A stretch of DNA of 64,000 nt, from positions 33,215 to 97,214 of the forward strand of contig JBAZFK010000002.1 in NCBI GenBank assembly GCA_041653395.1, read 5' to 3'. The notes beneath the pieces are model-generated. The model did no database searches and was not told the DNA's origin. It worked only from the letters and a program-made list of their open reading frames with translations. Of this stretch, positions 30,023 to 40,550 are shown one piece after another. Made by a program: the position numbers and the translations under genes. Position 1 is the first letter of the stretch; every line of letters starts with the position of its first letter. The stretch comes from Candidatus Nanoarchaeia archaeon (GTDB taxonomy: Archaea; Nanobdellota; Nanobdellia; Tiddalikarchaeales; Tiddalikarchaeaceae).

Positions 30023-30095
30023 AATAGATAAATTAATTATTTAATCATTTTAAAACATTACTTTTAAAAATAAATACTAATCTAATTATTCTTAT

Positions 30096-30170
30096 GGTCC
30101 GTTAGCTCAGCTTGGATAGAGCGCCTGCCTTCTAAGCAGGAGGTCGTGGGTTCAAATCCCATACGGACCA
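30096..30170 (+). tRNA. tRNA-Arg (anticodon TCT)
   Basis: Cloverleaf: acceptor ggtccgt/acggacc, anticodon stem cctgc/gcagg, loop cTTCTaa, T-loop ttcaaat. Confidence 0.85.
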
Positions 30171-30646
30171 ATAGTTGACAATCTGGGGAATAAATACCAA
30201 GAAATTTCTTCAACTGTTTTATGAGTTCTTGATTCAATGTTTTTTATTAAAGATTCAATATCTTCCCATTTCCATCCGGTTCTAAAATTAATTTTATCTA
30301 GATTCAAATTAGGTGATGTGCTGATTAGATAATTATTTGCATAGTTGTGGGGGTCTTGTATAAAAAAGCTTTGATGGGCTTCAATCACTTCATGGGCAAG
30401 CATAGGCTTTCTGAATTCCGTAAAATAAATATTGCCTTCTTTCAGCAAATCAACGCATTTTTTTGAATAAATTATGGATAAGCATGTGATTTTTTCATTA
30501 AAATCATAAGTTGCAACATAATTCATGTTTACCTTATCTGAAATGTTCATAGGACCTAGTTCTATTGTTTTAAAATAAGAATTCGCATATTTTTTGTTAA
30601 ACTCATTCAATAATTCTAGCTCAGAGTCTATTAAACAGGATTCCAT
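30152..30646 (-). CDS. hypothetical protein (its 3' end overlaps the tRNA by about 19 nt)
   Basis: 164-aa ORF. The overlap with the tRNA lowers confidence in the exact stop. Confidence 0.35.
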   Translation of the reverse strand: MESCLIDSELELLNEFNKKYANSYFKTIELGPMNISDKVNMNYVATYDFNEKITCLSIIYSKKCVDLLKEGNIYFTEFRKPMLAHEVIEAHQSFFIQDPHNYANNYLISTSPNLNLDKINFRTGWKWEDIESLIKNIESRTHKTVEEISWYLFPRLSTIGPYGI

Positions 30647-30691
30647 GAGTTATTCTTTAAATCTTTATTTTTTTAAAGCTTTACTTTATCA

Positions 30692-30934
30692 TTATTCTGG
30701 AATATATACTATTGTTTTATCATTGTCTTGTTTAATAGCATAGTTTATTGAAAATTCATCATTTTCAGTATAAAACTTTACTTTTAGCAAGGAGTCTGTA
30801 TGAATTCCATCTGTGCTTCCAATATTTTGTATTTTATATGAAACTTCACAACCTTTTTCTTTAGCTGCATGTTTCATGAATCCGATTGTCTCTTCTAAAG
30901 ACAATTCTTTTATTTTAATTTCATTGGTGTTCAT
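30692..30934 (-). CDS. small hypothetical protein
   Basis: 80-aa ORF. Confidence 0.3.
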   Translation of the reverse strand: MNTNEIKIKELSLEETIGFMKHAAKEKGCEVSYKIQNIGSTDGIHTDSLLKVKFYTENDEFSINYAIKQDNDKTIVYIPE

Positions 30935-31004
30935 GAGTAATAACTGAAGAAATTCTCTTTAAAAATGTTACTATCTATTAGTGACAAATACTTGCAACTG
31001 TTAA

Positions 31005-31517
31005 TCAATCATAAACATTCATGTTCAGCCTTTCCATTAATTTCTCTTTTATTGAATTAAGCTCTTCCATATAAAGTGCAGCATAAGTCAAAAGCTTTGA
31101 CTGATAATTAGTCCTTAAATAGATTGGCAGAATCATTTTAGTAAAAGAATTTCTTCTCCAAGTTTTAGTGTAGTCAAGTTCAATATTATATTTTATTACA
31201 AATATACCCATTACAGTGTCTCCAGCAATTCTGTAAGCATTTGTTGACAAAATAAAGGAGATTCTTGCAAAATCATCAATGTTTTTATAGGCAACCCAAT
31301 CCCATAACATAGTCTTGGCTGTCTGGTCTATATCTGTCTGAGTGAATGAGGTTTCAGTGCATTTTAATCCCCATTTTTCAATCAAATCATTGTAAAAATT
31401 TATATAAAAATCACTTATTTTCATTATGCTTCCTTTATTTTTAATTGTAAGCCAGTTAATATTGATTATTATTGGCTCATCTGGTTTTGCATCCTCAACC
31501 ATTTGCTTAAAATTCAT
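31005..31517 (-). CDS. hypothetical protein
   Basis: 170-aa ORF. Confidence 0.4.
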   Translation of the reverse strand: MNFKQMVEDAKPDEPIIININWLTIKNKGSIMKISDFYINFYNDLIEKWGLKCTETSFTQTDIDQTAKTMLWDWVAYKNIDDFARISFILSTNAYRIAGDTVMGIFVIKYNIELDYTKTWRRNSFTKMILPIYLRTNYQSKLLTYAALYMEELNSIKEKLMERLNMNVYD

Positions 31518-31596
31518 AGATTAAATATTGTCATCCTTTAATTAAAAAAGTTATGAATAAATAATTCTTATAAAACCTAGAATATTAAAAATTTGT

Positions 31597-32133
31597 ATGG
31601 TTTATGAGGTTGAAATCAGAAGCTTTATCTCTAAAGACGAATATTCAGAGCTGATTAATTTTTTTGATAAGCACGCCAACTTTTTAAGCGAGAGCGACCA
31701 AGAAACCCATTACTTTGACTGCAATAAGGATTTAAGGATTCAAAAAAATAACAATTACTCAAAGATTTGGCTTAAATTAGGAAAAATGCATGATGAAAAA
31801 AGAAAAGAGATAGAGCTCATGCTAAAAAAAGAGGATTTTTCTAAAGCTCAGGAATTGTTTAATGAGTTAGGGTTTAATGTTAAAATAAAATGGTTAAGGA
31901 AAAGGCGCGAATATGAATGGGGAGAATTCAGCGTCTGCATAGATTACACAAAAGGATATGGTTACATTATTGAGGTTGAAAAGCTCTGCGAAGAAAAAGA
32001 CAAGGATTATTATGAAAACCTGATCAAATCAAAGTTTGATGAGCTTAATGTAAAAATTACTTCTAAGGAAGAGTTTAGCCAAAAGTTCAATGATTATGAA
32101 AAGAATTGGAAATCATTAATTAACAAGAATTAG
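31597..32133 (+). CDS. CYTH-domain protein (CyaB / thiamine-triphosphatase-like)
   Basis: N-terminal YEVEIR..F and alternating acidic pattern typical of CYTH. Size about 178 aa. Confidence 0.45.
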   Translation: MVYEVEIRSFISKDEYSELINFFDKHANFLSESDQETHYFDCNKDLRIQKNNNYSKIWLKLGKMHDEKRKEIELMLKKEDFSKAQELFNELGFNVKIKWLRKRREYEWGEFSVCIDYTKGYGYIIEVEKLCEEKDKDYYENLIKSKFDELNVKITSKEEFSQKFNDYEKNWKSLINKN

Positions 32134-32174
32134 TTAAGTTTTAAAAAACCTGATTTTCTATTTTTATTTGTCAA

Positions 32175-32321
32175 GAGTCCGTGGCTCAGCTTGGATAGAG
32201 CGACTGCCTCCTAAAAAATTGTGATGATGAGAAGGTCAACTGAAAATTATGTGATGAGACTGACCTACCCTGAGTTTTTGGAGATAGCAGTAGGTCGGGG
32301 GTTCAAATCCCCTCGGGCTCG
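32175..32321 (+). tRNA. tRNA-Arg (anticodon CCT) with a ~72-nt intron at the canonical 37/38 position (exon 1 about 32175-32213, exon 2 about 32286-32321)
   Basis: acceptor gagtccg/cgggctc, D-arm gctc/gagc, anticodon stem actgc...gcagt split by the intron, loop cuCCUaa, T-arm ggggg ttcaaat cccct. Confidence 0.8.
32221..32273 (+). ncRNA. box C/D sRNA embedded in the tRNA-Arg(CCT) intron
   Basis: C gtgatga (32221-27), 12-nt guide, D' ctga (32240-43), 7-nt spacer, C' gtgatga (32251-57), 12-nt guide, D ctga (32270-73). Confidence 0.6.
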
Positions 32322-32344
32322 CTTATTAATATTATAAGTTTTAG

Positions 32345-32400
32345 TTTCCCCCAGGGCTTTGCCTTGCAAAGGGCTGGTTCTAAATCCCCTCGGGCTCGCT
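32345..32400 (+). other. tRNA-trailer element A: conserved hairpin with GG/GG internal loop plus a degenerate copy of the tRNA 3' T-arm/acceptor strand
   Basis: tttcccc CAGggctttgc ctt gcaaagggCTGg ttctaaatcccctcgggctcgct. One of three copies in the window. Confidence 0.6.
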
Positions 32401-32591
32401 TATTATTAAATTAATTCATTAACATAAGTTGTCAATATTTGAGTTGTCTTGAAGGATTTTCCAAAGTACTGCTCGATATTAAAAGCTGCATATTTTTGCA
32501 TAATTTATTTATAATGATTTATTTTTAAAAAACTATATGACATCTTTTGAGTAGTGAAATATTTAAATTGCAGCCAATTAATTATTAAACA

Positions 32592-32954
32592 ATGGAAAAG
32601 AAGAATTATTTGATGATAATAATAGCAATCGTTATTTTTGGGATAATAATGTCTTTGGCTTACAGCGGAATTTTAGGATTTATCAACATAATCCCCTCCA
32701 ATGATGAGATTTCCACAAGCCAGCTTTTGGCAGAATGCGGAAGAGCTGCTTCTTTATATACCACCATAAAAACAGAGGCCAATAGGAAGAATTTTTGCTG
32801 CACAACTCTTGATTTAAACGGCAATGATATGATTGACAGCAATGAATATTGCGCAAAAATTTATGACAAAAACATTGAAGGAAACAGTGCTGCAATGCTG
32901 TGCAGCAGCCCAGTAAATTATTACAGTAATTATTCGGAGTGTGAAAACAAATGA
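32592..32954 (+). CDS. secreted Cys-rich small protein
   Basis: N-terminal TM/signal helix and 8 Cys in the mature part. Confidence 0.4.
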   Translation: MEKKNYLMIIIAIVIFGIIMSLAYSGILGFINIIPSNDEISTSQLLAECGRAASLYTTIKTEANRKNFCCTTLDLNGNDMIDSNEYCAKIYDKNIEGNSAAMLCSSPVNYYSNYSECENK

Positions 32955-33100
32955 TTGATGGAGTTATATTATTAATGGTTTTTGTGTTCATATTCTCATT
33001 CATTGCAGCATATTTTTTTCTAGATGACAGGAATTCGAATCGCGTGCTTTTAAAATCCTTTTTTTCAAGCTTGGTGATATTTTTAGCAATACTTTTTTTT

Positions 33101-33748
33101 CTAATAATTAGCTAATAGCAATGAAGCACTAAATGGCAGTGTGAAATCGTCTATTTTGCTAGGGCTTATTAGTTCAACAACTGAAATTATGAAGCTTATT
33201 GCCAAAGCTTTCATTGAAAATCCGAAAAATGATGATATTATCATTAAGTTTGATATTAGCATTGCAAGCGAGCCTTCAAAAGTCCTGTTATTTCCCAATA
33301 TTGAAAAAACGTTTTTTCCGTAGTTTTTACCTATAATTGCAGCCAAAGGGTCCGATACTATTAATACTAATGCGCTTATTAATGGAACAATATTGTCATT
33401 GGTTACTATTGAAAAAAGTATCAGGTAAGTTATGGAGACTCCGTAAAGCGCTGGGCCTTGCAGGTAATTTTTTTCAAACTCATCATTCATTGAATAAAAC
33501 ACATGTTTTAGCAAAGGGGTTGATTTTCTTGACAAAAAAACTATCAATGTGATTATTGATGAGGCAATAAAATAAAGCCATTTATTGCTAGCAAAAAACA
33601 ATGAGATTATGCTTAATCCTGAGAAGAAATGAATAATCATTCTTGCAGTTCTTTTCCCTATCTTCTTTTTTTTGTACAAAACTATCGGGACTGCATAAAC
33701 AATTGCTATATATATTGAAACTAATAATATAATGATTAAGTCATTCAT
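33101..33748 (-). CDS. CdsA-family CTP transferase membrane protein (third paralog)
   Basis: SDPLAAIIGKNYGKNVFSILGNNRTFEGS motif. Multi-TM. Confidence 0.5.
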   Translation of the reverse strand: MNDLIIILLVSIYIAIVYAVPIVLYKKKKIGKRTARMIIHFFSGLSIISLFFASNKWLYFIASSIITLIVFLSRKSTPLLKHVFYSMNDEFEKNYLQGPALYGVSITYLILFSIVTNDNIVPLISALVLIVSDPLAAIIGKNYGKNVFSILGNNRTFEGSLAMLISNLMIISSFFGFSMKALAISFIISVVELISPSKIDDFTLPFSASLLLANY

Positions 33749-33812
33749 AGGTTATTCTGTGAACTTAGGGAATTATAAAATTTTTTAATGAGCAATTGTT
33801 CAATTATTTAAT

Positions 33813-33886
33813 GGGCTTATAGTATAACTTGGATAGTACAGTGGCCTTCGGAGCCGAAAATCAGGGTTCAAATCCCTGTAAGCCCT
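33813..33886 (+). tRNA. tRNA-Arg (anticodon TCG)
   Basis: acceptor gggctta/taagccc, anticodon arm gtggc cTTCGga gccga (one mismatch), T-arm caggg ttcaaat ccctg. Confidence 0.75.
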
Positions 33887-33907
33887 TTAGAGTTTTTTTT
33901 GTTTAAA

Positions 33908-33961
33908 TTTCCCCTGGGGCTTTGCTTACAGCAAAGGGCCAGTTCTAAATCCCTGTAAGCC
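33908..33961 (+). other. tRNA-trailer element B (same family as 32345..32400)
   Basis: tttcccc TGGggctttgc ttaca gcaaagggCCAg ttctaaatccctgtaagcc. The outer stem covaries with elements A and C. Confidence 0.6.
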
Positions 33962-34022
33962 TTCAGACTCCAAGATTTTTTAGAAAAATTATTTAAATAA
34001 AAAGATTGAATAGATTACTATA

Positions 34023-34496
34023 ATGGGCAAAAAAAATGATGAATGCAAGGATTGCATTGAAAACATGAAAAAGTTTGAAGAGCTGAAAAAGGATTACGTT
34101 TTGCTTAATAATCAATTAAGGCTGCTTCAGGCAGATTTTGACAACTACAAAAAAAGGGTTATTAAAGAAAAAATTGACTTGTCTGATTTGTCAAAAACAG
34201 AATTAATACTTGATTTATTGCCTGATTTGGAGGCTTTCAAAAAAGCCAGCGAGTTAAGCAAGGAAGAGGGTTTTAAATTATTATATAAAAATTTCATGAA
34301 AGTGCTGGCAAAAGCAGGGCTAAAAGAGATTAAATGCGTTGGCGAAAAATTTGACATTAATTTGCATGAGGCAATGCTTTCTGTTAGGGATGAAACCAAA
34401 GAGGATGGAATAATAATTGATGAAATAGAAAAAGGCTACACTTTCAATGATAAATTAATCAAGCCAAGCAAAGTGATTGTGAATAAGAAACAATAA
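34023..34496 (+). CDS. grpE: nucleotide exchange factor GrpE
   Basis: LRLLQADFDNYKKR, LLPDLEAF, FD...HEAM, C-terminal beta domain. Confidence 0.85.
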   Translation: MGKKNDECKDCIENMKKFEELKKDYVLLNNQLRLLQADFDNYKKRVIKEKIDLSDLSKTELILDLLPDLEAFKKASELSKEEGFKLLYKNFMKVLAKAGLKEIKCVGEKFDINLHEAMLSVRDETKEDGIIIDEIEKGYTFNDKLIKPSKVIVNKKQ

Positions 34497-34528
34497 CTTT
34501 ATTAATATCACTCCTTTATGTTATTTTT

Positions 34529-35008
34529 ATGATTTTTGAAGATTTTAAAAAGAAGCATTCTGATTTAGGGCTTACTGACAAGGATTTCAAGGAGTTTTAT
34601 TGCTTAATTTCTAATTACATACTTTTGAGGATTTTTCCAAATGAGAATGATTTTTATATGGTGACTGGGGAGGATGCTGACTCTTACTTTGACTATTTTG
34701 CCAGAGGGCTGCTTATAATAAAGGACAAATTTCATGTCAAGTTCAACAAGAAATTTTACGAGGCTTTGAACTTCATAATCTCTTATAATCAAACTTTTCA
34801 TTATACAGTTCTTTTTAATGAATTGGATGTTGATATCAAAAAAGAGATTATTAACTATGTGTCTATTAACAAGAAGAAATACAGGATGCCTTATTTGGTC
34901 AGGAATTTCTTGACCGAGCTAATCTATTGCTTTGAGCCTGAAAGGCTTGTAAAAATAGAGATGTACAAAAGCTTTGTAAATTCAAACGGGAAATACTTGT
35001 TTGATTGA
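34529..35008 (+). CDS. hypothetical protein between grpE and dnaK
   Basis: 159-aa ORF. Confidence 0.4.
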   Translation: MIFEDFKKKHSDLGLTDKDFKEFYCLISNYILLRIFPNENDFYMVTGEDADSYFDYFARGLLIIKDKFHVKFNKKFYEALNFIISYNQTFHYTVLFNELDVDIKKEIINYVSINKKKYRMPYLVRNFLTELIYCFEPERLVKIEMYKSFVNSNGKYLFD

Positions 35009-35143
35009 GCTACAACAAGTTTTATAAAAACATTTTATTCTTATATCTGCTACATGGGAAAGTACTCTGAAAGCCTTGATGAGATAATTACTAAGGAAGA
35101 TGAAACTCATAAATAATATATGGGCTTGCCTATAATTTAATCT

Positions 35144-35236
35144 ATGTTGGCATTTTACCACAACATTTATAAATAACTATTGTTGGTATATTACACTAAC
35201 AATAAATGTTGGTGTCAAACACTAACAATAAATGGT
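35144..35236 (+). promoter_or_regulatory. dnaK upstream region: TATA-like box tttataaata and alternating inverted repeats ttgttggt / cactaacaa / tgttggtg / cactaacaa
   Basis: Repeated half-sites, 8-9 nt with 4-6 nt spacers, within 100 nt of the dnaK start. Candidate operator for a heat-shock regulator. Confidence 0.4.
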
Positions 35237-35244
35237 GATAATTA

Positions 35245-37161
35245 ATGGCAAGAACAATAGGTATTGATTTAGGAACAACAAAATGCTGTATGGCATATAT
35301 TGAAGGCGGAAGGCCTCAAGTAATTCCAACCTCAGAAGGAGACAGAATAATGCCTTCAATGGTTGCGTTCACAAAAGAAGGGGAAAGATTAATCGGAACA
35401 CCTGCAAAAAGGCAGGCAGTTGTAAATGCTGAAAACACAGTATTTCACATTAAAAGATTCATGGGAAGAAAATATAATGACCCAGCAATCAAATTCGACT
35501 TAACTCATGCCCCTTATAAAATAGTTAAAGCTCCAAATGGAGATGTAAGGGTTGAGCTTAAAGGAAAGCAATACTCACCACCAGAGATAAGCGCAATGCT
35601 TCTCAGCAAATTAAAAAAAGACGCTGAAGCCTTCTTAGCTGAAGAGGTTGACAGCGCAGTAATAACTGTTCCAGCATATTTTAATGACTCCCAAAGGCAA
35701 GCAACAAAGCAGGCAGGAGAGATAGCAGGGCTTAAAGTTTTAAGAATAATAAATGAACCAACAAGCGCAAGCTTAGCCTACGGATTAGACAAAAAAGGAA
35801 GCAAAAAAATAGCAGTCTATGACTTAGGAGGAGGAACCTTTGATATAAGCATACTAGAATTAAGCGACGGAATCTTCGAAGTCAAATCAACAAACGGAGA
35901 CACCCACTTAGGAGGAGCTGACTGGGACCAAAGAATAATGGACTACATTGTTGAAGAATACAAAAAAAAGCACAATATTGACTTATCAAAAGACAAAACA
36001 GCCATTCAAAGGCTAAAAGAAGCTGCTGAAAAAGCAAAAATAGAGCTTTCAACAACAACTAACACTGAGATTAATATTCCATATATTACAATGGTGGATG
36101 GCAATCCAATTCATGTGAATATGCAGCTATCAAGAGCTAAATTTGAGGATTTGGTGAAAGATTTGCTTGAAAAAACAGTAAGCCCTTGCGAAAAAGCAAT
36201 CAAGGATGCAGGAATAACAAAATCGCAAATTGATGAAATAATATTAGTTGGTGGACCAACAAGAACCCCATCAATCTATGAAAAAGTCAAGAAATTTTTC
36301 GGAAAAGAGCCTAACAAAGGAGTTAACCCTGATGAAGTTGTTGCAGTAGGAGCAGCAATACAAGCAGGAGTGCTAGGAGGAGAAATAAAAGATGTATTAT
36401 TGTTAGATGTTACTCCATTAAGCTTAGGAATTGAAACCTTAGGAGGAATATTTACAAAAATGATTGACAGAAACACCACTGTTCCAATCAAAAAAAGCCA
36501 AGTCTACAGTACTGCAGCTGACAACCAGCCAGCAGTAAGCATACACGTGCTTCAAGGAGAAAGGCCAATGTCAGCAGACAACCATTCTCTTGGAAGATTT
36601 GACTTAGTCGGAATACCTCCAGCCCCAAGAGGAATACCACAAATAGAGGTAACCTTTGACATTGATGCAAATGGAATAATCAATGTCAGCGCGAAAGACT
36701 TAGGAACCGGAAAACAGCAGGCAATAAGCATCAAATCCTCAACAGGACTTAGTGACTCAGAGATTGAAAGAATGAAAGAACAGGCAAAGCAATACGAAGA
36801 GGATGACAGGAAAAAAGCTGAGCAAGTTGAAATATTAAACAAAGCTGAAACAATGACTTACACTGTTGAAAAAACCATAAAAGAAATGGGAGACAAAATG
36901 GACGCTGACACAAAGAAGAATTTGGAAGAAAAATCCGCAGAATTAAAAGCAGTTATTCCAAGCGAGAATCTTGAAGATATAAAGAAAAAAATGGAAGAAC
37001 TAGAAACAATGATTCAGGAATTCACAACAAAACTTTACCAAAAAGCTGCAGCTGAACAGCAAGCCCAACAACCTAATGAAGAAAAGGCAAAGAAACCAAA
37101 AAAAGACAACAAGAACTCAGAAGATGAAGTAGTTGATGGAGACTTTGAGGAAAAGAAATAA
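35245..37161 (+). CDS. dnaK: molecular chaperone DnaK (Hsp70)
   Basis: [10 protein letters not shown]-type start, DLGGGTFD, full Hsp70 NBD and SBD. Confidence 0.97.
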
Positions 37162-37231
37162 AAATTTCTTTTCTTTTTTCTTATTTTTTTTATTAACTTT
37201 TTTAAATAAAGGAAGAGTGAACTGAATTATT

Positions 37232-38365
37232 ATGCCTAAAAATTATTATGAAACATTAGGAGTTAGCAAGGATGCAAGCCAAGAAGAGATAAAAAAAGCT
37301 TACAGAAAAATGGCAATGAAATACCACCCTGATGTCAATAAAGAGAAAGGTGCAGAGGATAAGTTCAAGGAACTAAACGAAGCTTTCAGCGTGATAGGTG
37401 ATGAATCTAAAAGGCAGCAATATGACATGTTCGGCACCACTAGGGACCAGCAAAACCAGGGAGGATTCCAGCAAGGAGCTCAAGGAGGATTTAATGGAGC
37501 AGGATTTGAGGACATGTTCGGAGGCTTTGAAGATATCTTCGGCAGCTTCTTTGGCCAAAGAAGCCATAGGCAAGAAGATGAATCAGGCGAAGATTTAAGG
37601 TACGACTTAGAGATAGAGTTAGAGGAGGTTTACTTTGGGGCAGAAAAAGAGATAAGCTATTATGCTTATGTTGAATGCAGCAAGTGCGACGGCTCAGGAG
37701 CGAGCAATAAATCAAAAATACATGTTTGCAGCACTTGCCACGGCAAAGGATTTATAACCCAAATGGTGAATTTAGGGCCAATAAGAATGCAAAACCAAGG
37801 AGTATGCCCAACCTGCAGAGGAAAAGGTAAAACAATAAAAGATCCTTGCAGCCAATGCGATGGAAAAGGCAGAATAAAAGATAAAGTAAAAATTAAGGTA
37901 AAAATACCCAAAGGGATAAACGAAGGGCAAAGAATAAAGATTAAAGGAAAAGGAAACGCCGCAAAAAACAACAATGCTCCAGGAGACTTATATGTATTTA
38001 TCAGCATTAAGGAGCATTCCAGATTTGAAAGATACAATGAAAACCTTCTAACAACTGTTGATATAAATTTCACGCAAGCAGTGCTTGGAGACAAAGTAAG
38101 CATTAAAACTTTTGACTCAGAAGTCATGCTAAAAATACCTGCAGGCACTCAGCCAAACACTGTATTCAGGTTAAGAGATAAAGGACTTCCAATACTTAAT
38201 CATGATGATTTCGGAGACTTGCTTGTAAAAGTGAACATTGTAGTCCCGACAAAACTAAGCAGCAAAGAAAAGGAGTTGATACAAGAATTGTCAGAGCTTG
38301 AAGGCAAAAAAAACAATACAAGAAAAGGATTCTTTGAACGCTTAAAGGAAGAGTTCAACAAATAA
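37232..38365 (+). CDS. dnaJ: molecular chaperone DnaJ
   Basis: J domain with HPD (KYHPDVN), Gly/Phe-rich region, four CxxCxGxG zinc-finger repeats. Confidence 0.95.
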
Positions 38366-38398
38366 AAATATAAAACCTAATAATTTATTAAATTATTA

Positions 38399-39028
38399 AT
38401 GATTAAGGAATTCTGCATGTACAATAAATCAATAAATGATTTAAAAAAAGCGATTAGTTTAGACAAAAAATTAGTGATTACTGATATCTGGAGCGATTTA
38501 AAAAATTATAAAGAGATAGAATCTTTACTGTTAAGCAATGGATTTAAGCTGAACTATAAAAGGCCTGTTTTTTACAAAAAAGTCAGCGTTCCTGAAAAAT
38601 CAAAGCTGATTTTTAAGACTGAAAAAAAAATAATCAAAGGATTGTTTTTTGAAATGCTTAAAAAAACTGAAAATGCTGACTTTTTAAGCTGGAAAGAAAC
38701 CCCTGCCAAAGGATTTAGGGAGATTTATTCACCTGTCAAGGAATGGAACTTATGCGCTTACAATGAATCAAATAAGCTAATAGGTTTTTTCACTTTAGAA
38801 CATAATAAAATAGGGTATGGAACTTTTTTATTAATTTATATTAAGGATGAATTCAGGGGAAAAAATTATGCAATTGAATTGCTAAAAAAAGCTGAGGAGT
38901 TGTTCATGAAATCAGGAATAAGGGACTGGTATGAATCATCCCATGAATCAAACACTGCAATGATTAAAACATTTATTAGATATGGTTTTATTCACAAACG
39001 AGACTTAATGTTTTTTATAAGAAATTAA
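38399..39028 (+). CDS. GNAT-family N-acetyltransferase-like protein
   Basis: C-terminal GYGTFLL...RGKNYAIELLKKAEE acetyl-CoA-binding-like core. Confidence 0.4.
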   Translation: MIKEFCMYNKSINDLKKAISLDKKLVITDIWSDLKNYKEIESLLLSNGFKLNYKRPVFYKKVSVPEKSKLIFKTEKKIIKGLFFEMLKKTENADFLSWKETPAKGFREIYSPVKEWNLCAYNESNKLIGFFTLEHNKIGYGTFLLIYIKDEFRGKNYAIELLKKAEELFMKSGIRDWYESSHESNTAMIKTFIRYGFIHKRDLMFFIRN

Positions 39029-39528
39029 TCAGTTTCATCAGTCTTGCCTTTTAACAGCTCAAACTTTTTCTTTAATTCATTCATCAAATCATTATGGGAA
39101 GGCTTATCATTAATAGGCAATTCAGTGTTATTTTGGATAATTGGAGCTTTTGGAGGGGGAGGTGGCAAGGGAGGATTATTTGCTGGTTTAACTGGATTAT
39201 ATAAATCAGTCAATAATCCAATAGCCATGCTTCTTACCGAGTCCTTTTCAGCAGCATTTGAAAGACTCTCTTTTGGCAAAACAGTCTCTAAATTATTAAT
39301 TTGAGTTTCAATAAGAGCATATTTATTCTCCAATGAATAAACTCTCTGGTCTAATGAGTTAACTTGAGTGTATAAGTCGCTGAATTTTTCATCAAGGTAT
39401 CCTGCCATGCTTATTATGTTTTTAGCAATCAACTCTATTGTTTCTTCAAGATAAACAAGTTTTATGCGAGTCTCATCATCATTAGAGCTGGAATTCAAAG
39501 CATCAATTAAACCAGAACCTTCTCCCAT
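39025..39528 (-). CDS. hypothetical coiled-coil protein with PPLPPPPPK tract
   Basis: 167-aa ORF. Confidence 0.4.
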   Translation of the reverse strand: MGEGSGLIDALNSSSNDDETRIKLVYLEETIELIAKNIISMAGYLDEKFSDLYTQVNSLDQRVYSLENKYALIETQINNLETVLPKESLSNAAEKDSVRSMAIGLLTDLYNPVKPANNPPLPPPPPKAPIIQNNTELPINDKPSHNDLMNELKKKFELLKGKTDETD

Positions 39529-39718
39529 AATAACTTATAATGTCTCTGAAAACTTATATACTTTTTTCAAACAAAAAATTATATAAATATAACAGGCTAA
39601 TTTAAATCTATAAACATGAAGCCAAGTACTATTTTAATAAGAGAAAGCAAAGCTTTAGTCTTATTAGTCAAGTATTAGGTTTCACTTTTTTAAAAATTTT
39701 TTTGCAGGTGAAACAATA

Positions 39719-40027
39719 ATGAACAGTGATAACTATAAAAAAAATAAGATAAAAAACTTGGAAGAGCAATTAATCAATAAAGGTATAAACGAGTGTTTCA
39801 TAACTTCGGTTTACGAAGTGAACAATAATCCAATACAAACTTTCAGGAATATCTACCTTGAACTTAAAAAAAATGAGCAATCTGTGCAGAGCTATAATTC
39901 ATTAGAGCTTGAGCTTATTAAAAAAGGTGTTAAAGAAAATACAATAAATGTTTTAAAGAGAGCTTTAAAAGACTACATTAAATATATGGGCCTTTTGAAA
40001 AAAATTTATGAAAAATACAAGAGTTAG
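39719..40027 (+). CDS. small hypothetical protein
   Basis: 102-aa ORF. Confidence 0.35.
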   Translation: MNSDNYKKNKIKNLEEQLINKGINECFITSVYEVNNNPIQTFRNIYLELKKNEQSVQSYNSLELELIKKGVKENTINVLKRALKDYIKYMGLLKKIYEKYKS

Positions 40028-40028
40028 A

Positions 40029-40361
40029 TTATTGTTTTTTTGATTCTATTTTTTTTATCTGCTTAACACATTTTTTAAGGCTTTGTGTGTAAACATTGAA
40101 AGTTTCATGGAAATAGTTGAATGAAATCAAAGGATTTGTTTGGCTTAGCACATAAAAGACTGCAGCATTTGCAACAGTATTGTATTGCCTTTGATGAGTA
40201 ATGCTTGCGTAATAATCAGAGATTATGCCTTTAATTTTAGATAATTGAGCCTCGTCTTTCAGGTTAAAATCCTCACAAGTAACCAAAGCAATTTCGTAGG
40301 TTTTTTTAATGTGATTGTTCAATAATTCACCCAAATCCTTTAAAATTGCATCTTTTACCAT
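40029..40361 (-). CDS. small hypothetical protein
   Basis: 110-aa ORF. Confidence 0.35.
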   Translation of the reverse strand: MVKDAILKDLGELLNNHIKKTYEIALVTCEDFNLKDEAQLSKIKGIISDYYASITHQRQYNTVANAAVFYVLSQTNPLISFNYFHETFNVYTQSLKKCVKQIKKIESKKQ

Positions 40362-40425
40362 AATTTAATAGTAAATTATTCTATTTAAAAAACTTATTAA
40401 AAACCCAAATCTCATTAATATTTAT

Positions 40426-40499
40426 GCCCCTGTAGTATAGCTTGGATAGAACAAGAGATTGCGGATCTTTAGACCCGGGTTCAAATCCCGGCAGGGGCA
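40426..40499 (+). tRNA. tRNA-Arg (anticodon GCG)
   Basis: acceptor gcccctg/caggggc, anticodon arm agaga uuGCGga ucuuu (one G-U), T-arm ccggg ttcaaat cccgg. Confidence 0.7.
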
Positions 40500-40550
40500 T
40501 TGGAAGAAAGGTGTAACACCCTAGTCTTTGCTTTATAAATAACTTTGGAG
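40487..40550 (+). repeat. att-like direct repeat copy 1: tRNA-Arg(GCG) 3' end plus 51 nt of trailer
   Basis: 64 nt nearly identical to 43029..43092 (1 mismatch). The first 14 nt are also at 49753..49766. Confidence 0.6.

What the first reader, a model, noticed from the sequence alone, without database searches (positions are those of the whole stretch)
32175..32321. tRNA-Arg(CCT) intron encodes a canonical box C/D sRNA with possible cis target in exon 2
The ~72-nt intron sits between positions 37 and 38. It reads C (gugauga), a 12-nt guide ugagaaggucaa, D' (cuga), a 7-nt spacer, C' (gugauga), a 12-nt guide gacugaccuacc, then D (cuga). Intron-encoded C/D RNAs are established knowledge for tRNA-Trp in several Euryarchaeota, where they methylate the host pre-tRNA. 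I am not aware of this for a tRNA-Arg, but that is a negative I cannot verify without a search. The D guide is complementary to GUAGGUCGG in exon 2 of the same tRNA over 9 pairs including one G-U, spanning the anticodon-stem 3' side and variable loop. By the +5 rule this predicts 2'-O-methylation at the G of the variable loop (about G45). The D' guide has only a 6-7-nt match (CCUUCU) to the anticodon region of the neighbouring tRNA-Arg(TCT), so its target is probably elsewhere.
Basis: partly seen in the sequence, partly recalled or inferred. Interest (0 to 1): 0.6.

Follow-up and report, generated by a model that had tools for sequence, protein, structure and literature searches.

The report
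Guide RNA inside a tRNA-Arg intron
An archaeal tRNA-Arg(CCU) gene carries a 72-base intron that is itself a textbook box C/D methylation-guide RNA. Its conserved guide fits the small-subunit ribosomal RNA far better than the tRNA that hosts it, so this is a new host for a known arrangement rather than a new mechanism.

Summary
Window 32175-32321 (+) is a tRNA-Arg(CCU) gene with a 72-nt intron at position 37/38. The intron reads C, 12-nt guide, D', 7-nt spacer, C', 12-nt guide, D, inside a bulge-helix-bulge fold. This architecture occurs once in the window and in none of 300 shuffles.

Six further sequence variants keep the boxes, and five of them keep the terminal stem through compensatory changes. 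The 10-nt D-guide core ACUGACCUAC is invariant.

The proposed cis target in exon 2 is not supported:
- The match is weak, 9 pairs with p about 0.03.
- Three orthologs carry U47C in the exon with no compensating change in the guide.

The D guide instead pairs by 10-11 contiguous Watson-Crick pairs with GGUAGGUCAGU in the 3' strand of helix 34 of archaeal 16S rRNA (5 of 1000 shuffled guides match as well). The predicted methylated G corresponds to eukaryotic Gm1490/Gm1428.

The D' guide is also conserved, but its target is unresolved. Candidates are 23S helix 69 and the opposite strand of helix 34.

The organism is an uncultured Nanoarchaeia (DPANN) archaeon. The literature I could search describes intron-borne C/D RNAs only for tRNA-Trp and for Nanoarchaeum tRNA-Met. 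I rate this a new member of a known kind, of moderate interest.

The parts
32175..32321 (+). tRNA-Arg(CCU) gene including the intron
   Evidence: Rfam RF00005 at 48.1 bits with a 74-nt insertion in the anticodon loop. Identical or near-identical in L001-L003 and L010.
32175..32213 (+). Exon 1 (positions 1-37; anticodon CCU at 32210-32212)
   Evidence: Sequence read directly. C32-C35 (32208-32211) pair with GGAG at 32280-32283 in the fold.
32214..32285 (+). 72-nt intron at canonical position 37/38, equal to the box C/D sRNA plus the splice-motif strands
32214..32220 (+). 5' strand of the outer helix (AAAAAUU). It serves both as the outer stem of the bulge-helix-bulge motif and as the terminal stem of the sRNA.
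   Evidence: Pairs with GUUUUU at 32274-32279. The helix is kept in six variants by matched length changes and compensatory pairs: 6, 6, 8, 4, 6 and 5 bp.
32221..32227 (+). Box C (GUGAUGA)
   Evidence: UGAUGA is invariant in 7 variants.
32228..32239 (+). D' guide (UGAGAAGGUCAA); core AGAAGGUCA conserved
   Evidence: The 9-nt core is identical in the window, L010, L016, L025 and L027. The target is unresolved.
32240..32243 (+). Box D' (CUGA)
32244..32250 (+). D'-C' spacer (7 nt)
   Evidence: The most variable part of the locus. It differs between strains and is 3-7 nt long in orthologs.
32251..32257 (+). Box C' (GUGAUGA; AUGAUGA in strain variants)
32258..32269 (+). D guide (GACUGACCUACC); core ACUGACCUAC invariant
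   Evidence: Invariant in 7 variants. 11 contiguous Watson-Crick pairs with Haloarcula 16S helix 34, reached by 5 of 1000 shuffled guides. The register to box D is fixed and only N+1 varies.
32270..32273 (+). Box D (CUGA)
32274..32279 (+). 3' strand of the outer helix / terminal stem (GUUUUU)
32280..32285 (+). GGAG (3' strand of the central 4-bp helix of the splice motif) plus AU of the 3-nt 3' bulge AU|A
   Evidence: GGAG is kept in 6 of 7 variants and reads GGCG in L039.
32286..32321 (+). Exon 2 (positions 38-73; no encoded CCA)
32290..32298 (+).
   Evidence: 9 pairs including 1 G-U. Pairs with the guide in the minimum-energy fold of the whole precursor. Not conserved in L025, L027 and L039.

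Best explanation
The tRNA-Arg(CCU) gene of this uncultured Nanoarchaeia (DPANN) archaeon is transcribed with a 72-nt intron.

**Excision.** The intron is cut out at a bulge-helix-bulge motif by the archaeal splicing endonuclease. The outer helix of that motif is also the terminal stem of a canonical double-guide box C/D sRNA.

**Action (inferred).** The released intron, linear or circular, binds L7Ae, Nop5 and fibrillarin and acts in trans on the ribosome.

**D guide.** The core ACUGACCUAC pairs with GGUAGGUCAGU in the 3' strand of helix 34 of 16S rRNA. It directs 2'-O-methylation of the first G after the unpaired A (E. coli position 1197). This is the counterpart of eukaryotic 18S Gm1490 (human) and Gm1428 (yeast).

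**D' guide.** The core AGAAGGUCA directs a second methylation on a C in UGA[C]CUUCU. The most likely sites are the 3' strand of 23S helix 69 (E. coli C1920) or the opposite strand of helix 34.

**Exon-2 match.** The partial complementarity of the D guide to exon 2 of the host tRNA is most likely incidental. The tRNA variable-loop sequence AGGUC happens to resemble helix 34.

**Shown:** gene structure, boxes, fold, conservation, compensatory changes, and guide complementarity to real archaeal 16S.

**Inferred:** RNP assembly, excision, the methylation itself, and the 16S sequence of this particular organism.
For: **Architecture.**
- The canonical architecture occurs once in the window and 0 times in 300 shuffles.
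- 27 of 32 sub-threshold Rfam matches on the intron are box C/D families.
- The fold gives anticodon stem, AUA bulge, CUCC/GGAG helix, UA(A) bulge and outer helix.

**Conservation.**
- Seven sequence variants come from metagenomes and one GTDB genome.
- Six variants keep all four boxes and both guide cores; L021 keeps box C, the D guide and box D.
- The terminal stem is kept by compensatory and matched-length changes.
- Strain-level differences fall only in the spacer, in the purine of box C', and at guide position N+1.

**D guide against 16S.**
- 11 contiguous Watson-Crick pairs with Haloarcula marismortui 16S helix 34, matched by 5 of 1000 shuffled guides.
- It is the best rRNA site for 6 of the 7 variants; for L016 it ties with a 23S site.
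- The Rfam archaeal SSU consensus at this site reads ACGgcAGGuCAGcaugCCCC.
- Six independent archaeal 16S genes read ACGG[U/C]AGGUCAG[U/C]AUGCCC.
- 45 of 46 ORF clusters derived from 16S encode this stretch.

**Against a cis target.** The exon-2 site mutates (U47C) without any change in the guide.

**Eukaryotic parallel.** Both strands of helix 34 carry conserved ribose methylations in eukaryotes (PMC2794176 table 1; PMC11542601 table 2).
Against: - No rRNA of this organism or of any Nanoarchaeia could be obtained. The match is therefore to 16S of other archaea.
- Two of the ten paired target positions (E. coli 1195 and 1203) are U in some archaea and C in others. If both were C in this lineage, the duplex would shrink to 7 pairs.
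- No fibrillarin, Nop5 or L7Ae gene lies in the window.
- The D' target is not established:
  - The helix 69 site needs a C-to-U change at a position that is conserved in the Rfam archaeal consensus. None of 29 ORFs derived from 23S that cover the site showed that variant.
  - The opposite strand of helix 34 needs three substitutions or a 1-nt deletion.
- There are no expression or modification data.
Confidence: 0.65

Rival explanations
1. Cis-acting guide, as in pre-tRNA-Trp. Before splicing, the D guide pairs with GUAGGUCGG of exon 2 and directs 2'-O-methylation of G45 in the variable loop of tRNA-Arg(CCU). This could occur in addition to an rRNA role.
For: - 9 contiguous pairs (8 Watson-Crick plus 1 G-U) with N+5 on G45.
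- The guide-exon helix appears in the minimum-energy and centroid folds of the whole precursor.
- There is precedent in tRNA-Trp (PMC7994747).
Against: - The match is only weakly unusual, with p about 0.02-0.03.
- In L025, L027 and L039 the exon has U47C with no compensating guide change, which breaks the duplex at N+7.
- In L016 the pairing is no better.
- The same guide forms a longer, all Watson-Crick duplex with 16S rRNA in every variant except L016.
- From my own knowledge, no 2'-O-methyl at position 45 is known in archaeal tRNAs.
Confidence: 0.12
2. Structural or chaperone role without methylation. The C/D boxes only provide a kink-turn for L7Ae that stabilises the splice motif or the folding of the precursor. 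On this view the 'guides' are conserved because they pair with each other (AGGUCA/UGACCU) to shape the intron.
For: - The two guide cores are complementary over 6 bp, matched by 203 of 20000 shuffled pairs. They pair in the fold of the isolated intron.
- L021 and the 'hairpin-type' introns replace the D'/C' region by a hairpin.
Against: - L021 has lost the D' guide yet keeps the D guide intact and in register with box D. The D guide is therefore not conserved merely as the partner of the D' guide.
- The invariant core extends beyond the 6 mutually complementary bases.
- The exact 12-nt spacing and the 10-11-bp match to a conserved rRNA site are what a working guide needs.
Confidence: 0.1
3. 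Both guides address the two strands of 16S helix 34. The D' guide targets C1059 (E. coli numbering) on the 5' strand, opposite the D target, in a lineage-specific variant of that strand.
For: - The guide-guide complementarity (p about 0.01) is what two strands of one helix would give.
- Its register coincides with the Rfam pairs 1058-1199, 1059-1198 and 1060-1197.
- The conserved bases C1059, C1060 and C1063 match, and the differences fall on positions that vary in the consensus.
- One archaeal 16S (L172) does show UCUUCAG on this strand.
- Most archaeal double guides hit sites less than 100 nt apart (PMC7994747).
Against: - None of six real archaeal 16S genes has UGACCUUCU here.
- The invariant guide base at N+10 would face the conserved G1064 unless the strand is 1 nt shorter.
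- The 23S helix 69 site needs only one transition.
Confidence: 0.3

Closest known systems
Intron-encoded box C/D sRNA of archaeal pre-tRNA-Trp (Haloferax, Pyrococcus sR50 and other Euryarchaeota)
   Same: - A complete C/D'/C'/D guide RNA occupies a long intron at position 37/38.
- The terminal stem of the sRNA doubles as the outer helix of the bulge-helix-bulge splice motif.
- A guide shows complementarity to the host exon.
   Different: - The host is tRNA-Arg(CCU), not tRNA-Trp.
- The lineage is Nanoarchaeia (DPANN), not Euryarchaeota.
- Neither guide addresses position 34 or 39 of the host.
- The exon match is not conserved.
- The conserved guide fits 16S rRNA.
Nanoarchaeum equitans elongator tRNA-Met intron (66 nt, C/D-like, PMC3491384)
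   Same: A stable C/D-like RNA within a tRNA intron, in the same broad archaeal group.
   Different: - The N. equitans intron has a degenerate box C and a GC hairpin, and no assigned target.
- The present one has four consensus boxes, two 12-nt guides and a strong rRNA match.
- The 'hairpin-type' tRNA-Arg(CCU) introns seen in other metagenomic loci (L041 and others) look more like the N. equitans case.
Free-standing archaeal double-guide C/D sRNAs that target rRNA (Rfam sR families, snoPyro_CD)
   Same: - Box sequences, 12-nt guide spacing and a short D'-C' spacer.
- A 10-11-bp antisense match with the target at N+5.
- Sub-threshold Rfam matches to sR3, sR11, sR14 and snoPyro_CD.
   Different: - Not free-standing: it is produced by tRNA splicing rather than from its own promoter or by co-transcription with a neighbouring gene.
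- No Rfam family reaches its gathering score. The best is sR3 at 23 bits against a threshold of 41.
Eukaryotic SNORD25 (U25) and yeast snR56, the guides for 18S Gm1490 and Gm1428 in helix 34
   Same: - The predicted target is the homologous G of helix 34 (PMC2794176, PMC11542601).
- From memory, the U25 antisense element GACCUGUA-CUGA has the same register as GACCUACn-CUGA here.
- Both are encoded in an intron.
   Different: - No detectable sequence homology beyond the boxes and the antisense element (SNORD25 is not among the matches).
- The host is a tRNA intron removed by the splicing endonuclease, not a spliceosomal intron.
- The table in PMC11542601 lists no Pyrococcus abyssi equivalent of this site.

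Membership tests
Archaeal box C/D sRNA | Box C RUGAUGA near the 5' end and box D CUGA near the 3' end | tested here: met
   GUGAUGA at 32221-32227 and CUGA at 32270-32273. UGAUGA and GA are invariant in 7 variants.
Archaeal box C/D sRNA | Internal D' and C' boxes with a short (3-9 nt) spacer | tested here: met
   CUGA at 32240-32243, GUGAUGA at 32251-32257, 7-nt spacer. The spacer is 3-7 nt in orthologs.
Archaeal box C/D sRNA | About 12 nt between C and D' and between C' and D | tested here: met
   12 and 12 nt in the window. Orthologs have 12-13 nt, and L039 has 16 nt for the D' guide.
Archaeal box C/D sRNA | Terminal stem that brings C and D together (kink-turn context) | tested here: met
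   AAAAAU/GUUUUU, 6 bp. Compensatory and matched-length changes occur across 6 variants. The kink-turn itself was not modelled.
Archaeal box C/D sRNA | Guide complementary (9 bp or more) to a stable RNA, with the target opposite the fifth base upstream of D or D' | tested here: met
   D guide: N+1 to N+11 are Watson-Crick pairs with Haloarcula 16S helix 34, and N+2 to N+11 in five further variants (L016: N+2 to N+10 with one G-U). This was tested on the 16S of other archaea, not of this organism. The D' guide is inconclusive.
Archaeal box C/D sRNA | Assembly with L7Ae, Nop5 and fibrillarin, and methyl transfer | not testable with these tools
   No such genes in the 64-kb window by motif search.
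Archaeal box C/D sRNA | Membership of a curated Rfam C/D family | tested here: not met
   The best match is sR3 at 23.0 bits against a gathering score of 41. All matches are below threshold. It belongs to the class but to no named family.
Archaeal tRNA intron with bulge-helix-bulge motif | Two 3-nt bulges that carry the splice sites, separated by a 4-bp helix and flanked by helices | tested here: met
   Anticodon stem, AU|A bulge, CUCC/GGAG helix, UA|A bulge, outer helix. With maximal pairing the 5' bulge is 2 nt. The canonical 3-nt form requires the terminal A-U pair to open.
pre-tRNA-Trp-type cis-acting intron guide | Host is tRNA-Trp | tested here: not met
   The anticodon is CCU, i.e. Arg.
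pre-tRNA-Trp-type cis-acting intron guide | Both guides are complementary to the host pre-tRNA (positions 34 and 39), and this complementarity is conserved | tested here: not met
   The D' guide forms at most 5 pairs with the host. The D guide forms 9 pairs centred on G45, not on 34 or 39. The exon change U47C is uncompensated in 3 orthologs.
Functional equivalent of SNORD25/snR56 (helix 34 Gm) | Targets the G homologous to human 18S G1490 and yeast G1428 | tested here: inconclusive
   N+5 is the first G of UA[G]GUCAG. The sites are listed in helix 34 by PMC2794176 and PMC11542601. The alignment was not checked on a database sequence.

The most novel reading that the evidence does not exclude
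tRNA-Arg(CCU) introns may be a recurrent, possibly ancient, home for box C/D guide RNAs in several uncultured archaeal lineages.
- At least three intron types were seen: the double-guide type here, a hairpin half-guide type, and a compact GC-rich type.
- In the Nanoarchaeia type, the guide is the archaeal counterpart of eukaryotic SNORD25/snR56, and it may methylate both strands of 16S helix 34 next to the decoding site.
- That would be an archaeal example of an rRNA-modification guide produced from the intron of a translation-machinery gene. This is the arrangement typical of eukaryotic snoRNAs.
Probability: 0.3. Interest if true: 0.6.

Novelty: new member of a known kind. Interest (0 to 1): 0.45.

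Why it matters
**Wider host range.** Intron-borne C/D guide RNAs in Archaea have been treated as a peculiarity of tRNA-Trp, with one degenerate tRNA-Met case. A clean, conserved example in tRNA-Arg(CCU) of a DPANN archaeon widens the host range and the taxonomic range.

**Role of the intron.** A tRNA intron can serve simply as a production site for an rRNA guide, rather than as a device for modifying its own host.

**Cross-domain site.** If confirmed, the predicted target links a mesophilic, genome-reduced archaeon to a ribose methylation next to the decoding site that is conserved in yeast, plants and humans. A published cross-domain table lists no Pyrococcus equivalent for it.

**Annotation.** Standard tRNA finders miss the gene. 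Genomes of this group may therefore appear to lack tRNA-Arg(CCU) and the sRNA.

Tried and rejected
**Attempts to obtain rRNA of this lineage or a related one.**
1. Looked for rRNA in the window and in all fetched loci, to test targets directly. There was none.
2. Scanned viral contigs with a 16S helix 34 motif. All 54 hits were chance matches with no rRNA.
3. Walked beyond the window ends by exact protein look-up. Only short contigs were returned, or nothing was on record.
4. Used spurious ORFs called on archaeal 16S to fetch rRNA genes. This gave five more archaeal 16S genes that confirm the helix 34 3' strand. I cannot place any of the five in Nanoarchaeia, and none has the D' target.
5. Did the same for 23S helix 69 with a query carrying the hypothetical GACCUUC variant. 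No such variant appeared among 53 hits.

**Other scans and searches.**
6. Scanned genome contigs with a strict pattern for the CCU loop plus four boxes. One true hit was the same species. The six others were free-standing sRNAs preceded by a chance CTCCTR. Because the pattern was strict, the rarity among reference genomes is not established.
7. Literature string search for the guide and target sequences returned only unrelated primers.

**Targets and explanations considered and rejected.**
8. tRNA targets in the window for either guide. The D' guide gives 7-8 pairs with the anticodon arms of tRNA-Arg(UCU) and tRNA-Arg(UCG), but N+5 falls on position 31 in the stem. This is not convincing.
9. 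A 12/12 match of the D' guide at Haloarcula plasmid locus L165 3681 lies upstream of the rRNA and was set aside as chance.
10. A chance origin of the boxes is rejected.
11. A pseudogene is rejected, because both exons are intact and conserved.
Full report
**1. What is in the sequence**

The Rfam tRNA model matches window 32175-32321 on the + strand at 48.1 bits, with a 74-nt insertion in the anticodon loop. ARAGORN does not report the gene. The exons fold into a standard cloverleaf:
- acceptor GAGUCCG/CGGGCUC
- D arm GCUC/GAGC
- anticodon stem ACUGC/GCAGU
- anticodon loop CU-CCU-AA
- T arm GGGGG/CCCCU

The anticodon is CCU (Arg) and no CCA is encoded.

The intron is 72 nt (32214-32285) and lies between positions 37 and 38. 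It reads aaaaauu-GUGAUGA-ugagaaggucaa-CUGA-aaauuau-GUGAUGA-gacugaccuacc-CUGA-guuuuu-ggag-au.

A regular-expression scan for this architecture finds it once in the 64-kb window on both strands. It finds it in none of 300 shuffled windows. On the intron alone, 27 of 32 sub-threshold Rfam matches are box C/D families. None reaches its gathering score; the best is sR3 at 23 bits against 41.

**2. Splice motif**

The anticodon arm plus intron folds into the following:
- the anticodon stem
- a 3-nt bulge AU|A on the 3' side
- a 4-bp helix between C32-C35 (CUCC) and GGAG (32280-32283)
- a UA(|A) bulge on the 5' side
- an A/U helix that leads directly into boxes C and D

This is a bulge-helix-bulge motif whose outer helix is also the terminal stem of the sRNA, as in pre-tRNA-Trp. 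One caveat applies. With maximal pairing the 5' bulge is 2 nt, and the canonical 3-nt bulge requires the terminal A-U pair to open. The run of A residues makes the exact cut site ambiguous, but the mature sequence is unaffected.

**3. Origin and relatives**

Exact look-up of the neighbouring CYTH protein finds the locus in three metagenome assemblies. A scan of 185,579 species-representative genomes gave one true hit. It used a strict pattern of CCU loop, C, 12 nt, D', spacer, C', 12 nt, D. The hit, L010, is Candidatus Nanoarchaeia archaeon SO_2017_LW3_51, which is essentially the same species.

Strain variants differ from the window at only five positions in 281 nt. All five lie in the intron: the D'-C' spacer, the purine of box C' (G to A, still RUGAUGA), and the guide base next to box D.

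A metagenome scan required only the CCU loop, box C and a T loop. It returned 99 loci. Five of these are further distinct orthologs with the same guides: L016, L025 (identical to L034), L027, L039 and L021. L025 also has tRNA-Arg(UCG) about 1.5 kb downstream, as in the window.

Across the seven variants, the invariant intron columns are UGAUGA of box C, ACUGACCUAC of the D guide, and GA of box D. The D' guide core AGAAGGUCA is identical in the window, L010, L016, L025 and L027; in L039 it is partly kept. L021 replaces the D'/C' region by a hairpin but keeps the D guide in register with box D.

The terminal stem is maintained at 6, 6, 8, 4, 6 and 5 bp. Length changes are matched on both strands, and there are A-U to U-A, U-G and C-G replacements. 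The anticodon stem also covaries, ACUGC/GCAGU against ACAGC/GCUGU.

Together this is good comparative evidence for a functional structured RNA.

**4. The cis target does not hold up**

The D guide forms 9 contiguous pairs (8 Watson-Crick plus 1 G-U) with G42-G50 of exon 2. N+5 falls on G45, and this helix appears in the minimum-energy fold of the whole precursor.

However, 118 of 5000 shuffled guides and 172 of 5000 random 12-mers do as well against the 75-nt tRNA. In L025, L027 and L039 the exon reads GUAGGCC (U47C) while the guide is unchanged. That leaves 5 pairs, a mismatch at N+7, and 1-3 further pairs. A guide that is invariant while its supposed target drifts is not held by that target.

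Neither guide addresses positions 34 or 39 of the host.

**5. A better target for the D guide**

From memory, the complement of the guide (GGUAGGUCAGU) resembled archaeal 16S rRNA. To test this on real data, I used a memory-typed 16S fragment as a BLAST query against plasmid records. I then fetched the rRNA operon of Haloarcula marismortui pHMA288.

The window's D guide pairs with 11 contiguous Watson-Crick pairs at GGTAGGTCAGTA (L165 6153, 16S position 1141). No other rRNA site exceeds 7. Only 5 of 1000 shuffled guides reach 11 against these rRNAs. All seven variants pair with this site from N+2; five give 10 Watson-Crick pairs (N+2 to N+11), the window gives 11, and L016 gives 9 pairs with one G-U. 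It is the best rRNA site for six variants and ties for L016.

The Rfam archaeal SSU model places the site in the 3' strand of helix 34, with consensus ACGgcAGGuCAGcaugCCCC. N+5 is the first G after the unpaired A, which pairs with C1060 in E. coli numbering. The target is therefore E. coli position 1197.

Five further archaeal 16S genes, reached through spurious ORFs called on rRNA, read ACGG[U/C]AGGUCAG[U/C]AUGCCC. Of 46 such ORF clusters that cover the site, 45 encode RSVCP, which corresponds to AGGUCAGUAUGCCC.

The weak point is that positions 1195 and 1203 are U or C depending on the lineage. I could not obtain the 16S of any Nanoarchaeia. The guide has A opposite both positions, which fits the U/U form seen in three of the six genes.

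**6. Relation to eukaryotic sites**

Helix 34 carries conserved ribose methylations on both strands in eukaryotes:
- Gm1271 (snR40), and Gm1428 (snR56), in yeast
- Gm1328 and Gm1490 in human
- Gm1434 in Arabidopsis

These are listed in PMC2794176 table 1 and PMC11542601 table 2. The second table lists no Pyrococcus abyssi equivalent for the Gm1490 site.

On that basis the predicted target is the homologue of Gm1490/Gm1428. This step rests on recalled sequence and should be rechecked.

**7. The D' guide**

Its 9-nt core is conserved, so it probably has a target of the form UGA[C]CUUCU followed by U or C. Against Haloarcula rRNA it is not significant: the longest Watson-Crick run is 6, reached by 955 of 1000 shuffles. 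There are two candidates.

(a) **23S helix 69, 3' strand.** Haloarcula reads AUGACCCUCUUA, giving 9 of 10 Watson-Crick pairs for the L016 and L025 guides (8 plus one G-U for the window's guide), with one C where the guide needs U.
- The Rfam LSU consensus is ACUaUGACCCuCuUAAgG.
- N+5 would be E. coli C1920.
- Other archaea vary in this stem, for example GACUCUC in L173.
- A search of ORFs derived from 23S found no GACCUUC variant.

(b) **The 5' strand of helix 34, opposite the D target.**
- The two guide cores are complementary over 6 bp, matched by 203 of 20000 shuffled pairs.
- The register equals the Rfam pairs 1058-1199, 1059-1198 and 1060-1197.
- None of six archaeal 16S genes has the required sequence. 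L172 comes closest with UCUUCAG.
- The invariant N+10 base would face the conserved G1064 unless the strand is one base shorter.

I leave this open.

**8. Mechanism proposed**

The sequence of events is:
1. Transcription of the intron-containing pre-tRNA.
2. Recognition of the bulge-helix-bulge motif and excision.
3. Assembly of the excised intron with L7Ae, Nop5 and fibrillarin.
4. Methylation of 16S helix 34 (D guide) and of a second rRNA site (D' guide) in trans.

Steps 2 to 4 are inferred from the established behaviour of archaeal C/D sRNAs and tRNA introns. No C/D protein gene lies in the window. The neighbours are the two subunits of an ADP-forming acyl-CoA synthetase, a CYTH protein, GrpE and DnaK.

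**9. Comparison with what is known, and novelty**

- Reviews and primary papers in the searchable library describe intron-borne C/D sRNAs only for tRNA-Trp (PMC7994747, PMC3218864).
- The other case is a degenerate, hairpin-containing one in the Nanoarchaeum equitans tRNA-Met intron (PMC3491384).
- No paper combined the terms tRNA-Arg, tRNA intron and C/D sRNA.
- The element meets the sequence-level criteria of an archaeal C/D sRNA and of a bulge-helix-bulge intron.
- It fails the two criteria specific to the tRNA-Trp system, namely host identity and conserved targeting of the host.

It is therefore a new member of a known kind: a new host tRNA in a new lineage, probably directed at rRNA.

**10. 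Wider distribution**

In the metagenome scan, other tRNA-Arg(CCU) genes carried different C/D-like introns:
- a hairpin type with RUGAUGA, a GC hairpin and GAGAGUUAG-CAGA (eight loci)
- a compact GC-rich type (two loci)

The scan required box C, so their frequency is unknown. They nevertheless hint that tRNA-Arg(CCU) is a recurrent host.

**11. Verdict**

Interest is moderate at 0.45. The result would interest archaeal RNA biologists and has a clear, cheap decisive test: read the rRNA genes of the same genome. It does not reveal a new mechanism.

Noticed in passing
window 32305-32328 and 32382-32405: A 24-nt direct repeat, AAATCCCCTCGGGCTCGCTTATTA, comprises the last 17 nt of the tRNA plus 7 nt. 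The 77 bp that separate the starts of the two copies include a hairpin-like CCAGGGCUUUGC-CUU-GCAAAGGGCUGG. These 77 bp are present in the window and in L001-L003 but absent from the reference genome copy L010. This looks like the scar of an integration into the tRNA 3' end, or a small indel polymorphism.
   Followed up: partly
window 30095-40500: Four tRNA-Arg isoacceptor genes lie within 10.4 kb on the same strand: UCU at 30095, CCU at 32175, UCG at 33813 and GCG at 40425. The CCU-to-UCG spacing of about 1.5 kb recurs in the ortholog L025.
   Followed up: partly
L035, L041, L042, L045, L028, L017, L029, L086 (match coordinates as): Other metagenomic tRNA-Arg(CCU) genes carry a different intron of about 70 nt. 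Box C (RUGAUGA) lies close to the 5' splice site. A central GC hairpin replaces D'/C', and a conserved GAGAGUUAG is followed by CAGA or CUGA. A terminal stem flanks the boxes. The layout resembles the Nanoarchaeum tRNA-Met intron. Its best rRNA match is only 8 bp.
   Followed up: partly
L098, L058: GC-rich tRNA-Arg(CCU) genes carry a compact intron of about 57 nt, with C, D'-like (UUGA/AUGA), C' and D (CUGA/CAGA) boxes and different guides. In L098 the 3' end of the D guide (GCUAGG) is complementary to the anticodon/intron junction CCUAGC.
   Followed up: no
about 50 loci, e.g. L047 1139-1246 and L038 3553-3661: A conserved element of about 110 nt (GGCAGACAAGCC-CTCCTGTCTCGGGGGTGATGAG...GGTTCGAATCC) lies just downstream of tRNA-Ser(UGA) in tRNA clusters of freshwater metagenomes. 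It was caught only because it matches the search pattern. It is unidentified and unrelated to the finding.
   Followed up: no
L063, L022, L088, L097, L032: tRNA-like genes have a CUCCUAA loop followed by about 60 nt containing RUGAUGA but no clear box D. Their exon 2 is unusual (long variable region). They were not resolved.
   Followed up: no
L165 3681-3692 (Haloarcula marismortui pHMA288): An exact 12/12 complement of the window's D' guide (TTGACCTTCTCA) lies about 1.3 kb upstream of the 16S gene, outside the mature rRNA. It is probably chance, with about 0.0015 such matches expected in 12 kb.
   Followed up: no
window 30152-31517 (- strand): Three ORFs (164, 80 and 170 aa) between the two tRNA-Arg genes have no Pfam match. 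The first overlaps the 3' end of tRNA-Arg(UCU) by 20 nt.
   Followed up: partly
window 32175-32321 and loci L016, L041, L098, L058, L029: ARAGORN in its default mode misses every intron-bearing archaeal tRNA here. Routine annotation of such genomes would report tRNA-Arg(CCU) as missing.
   Followed up: yes
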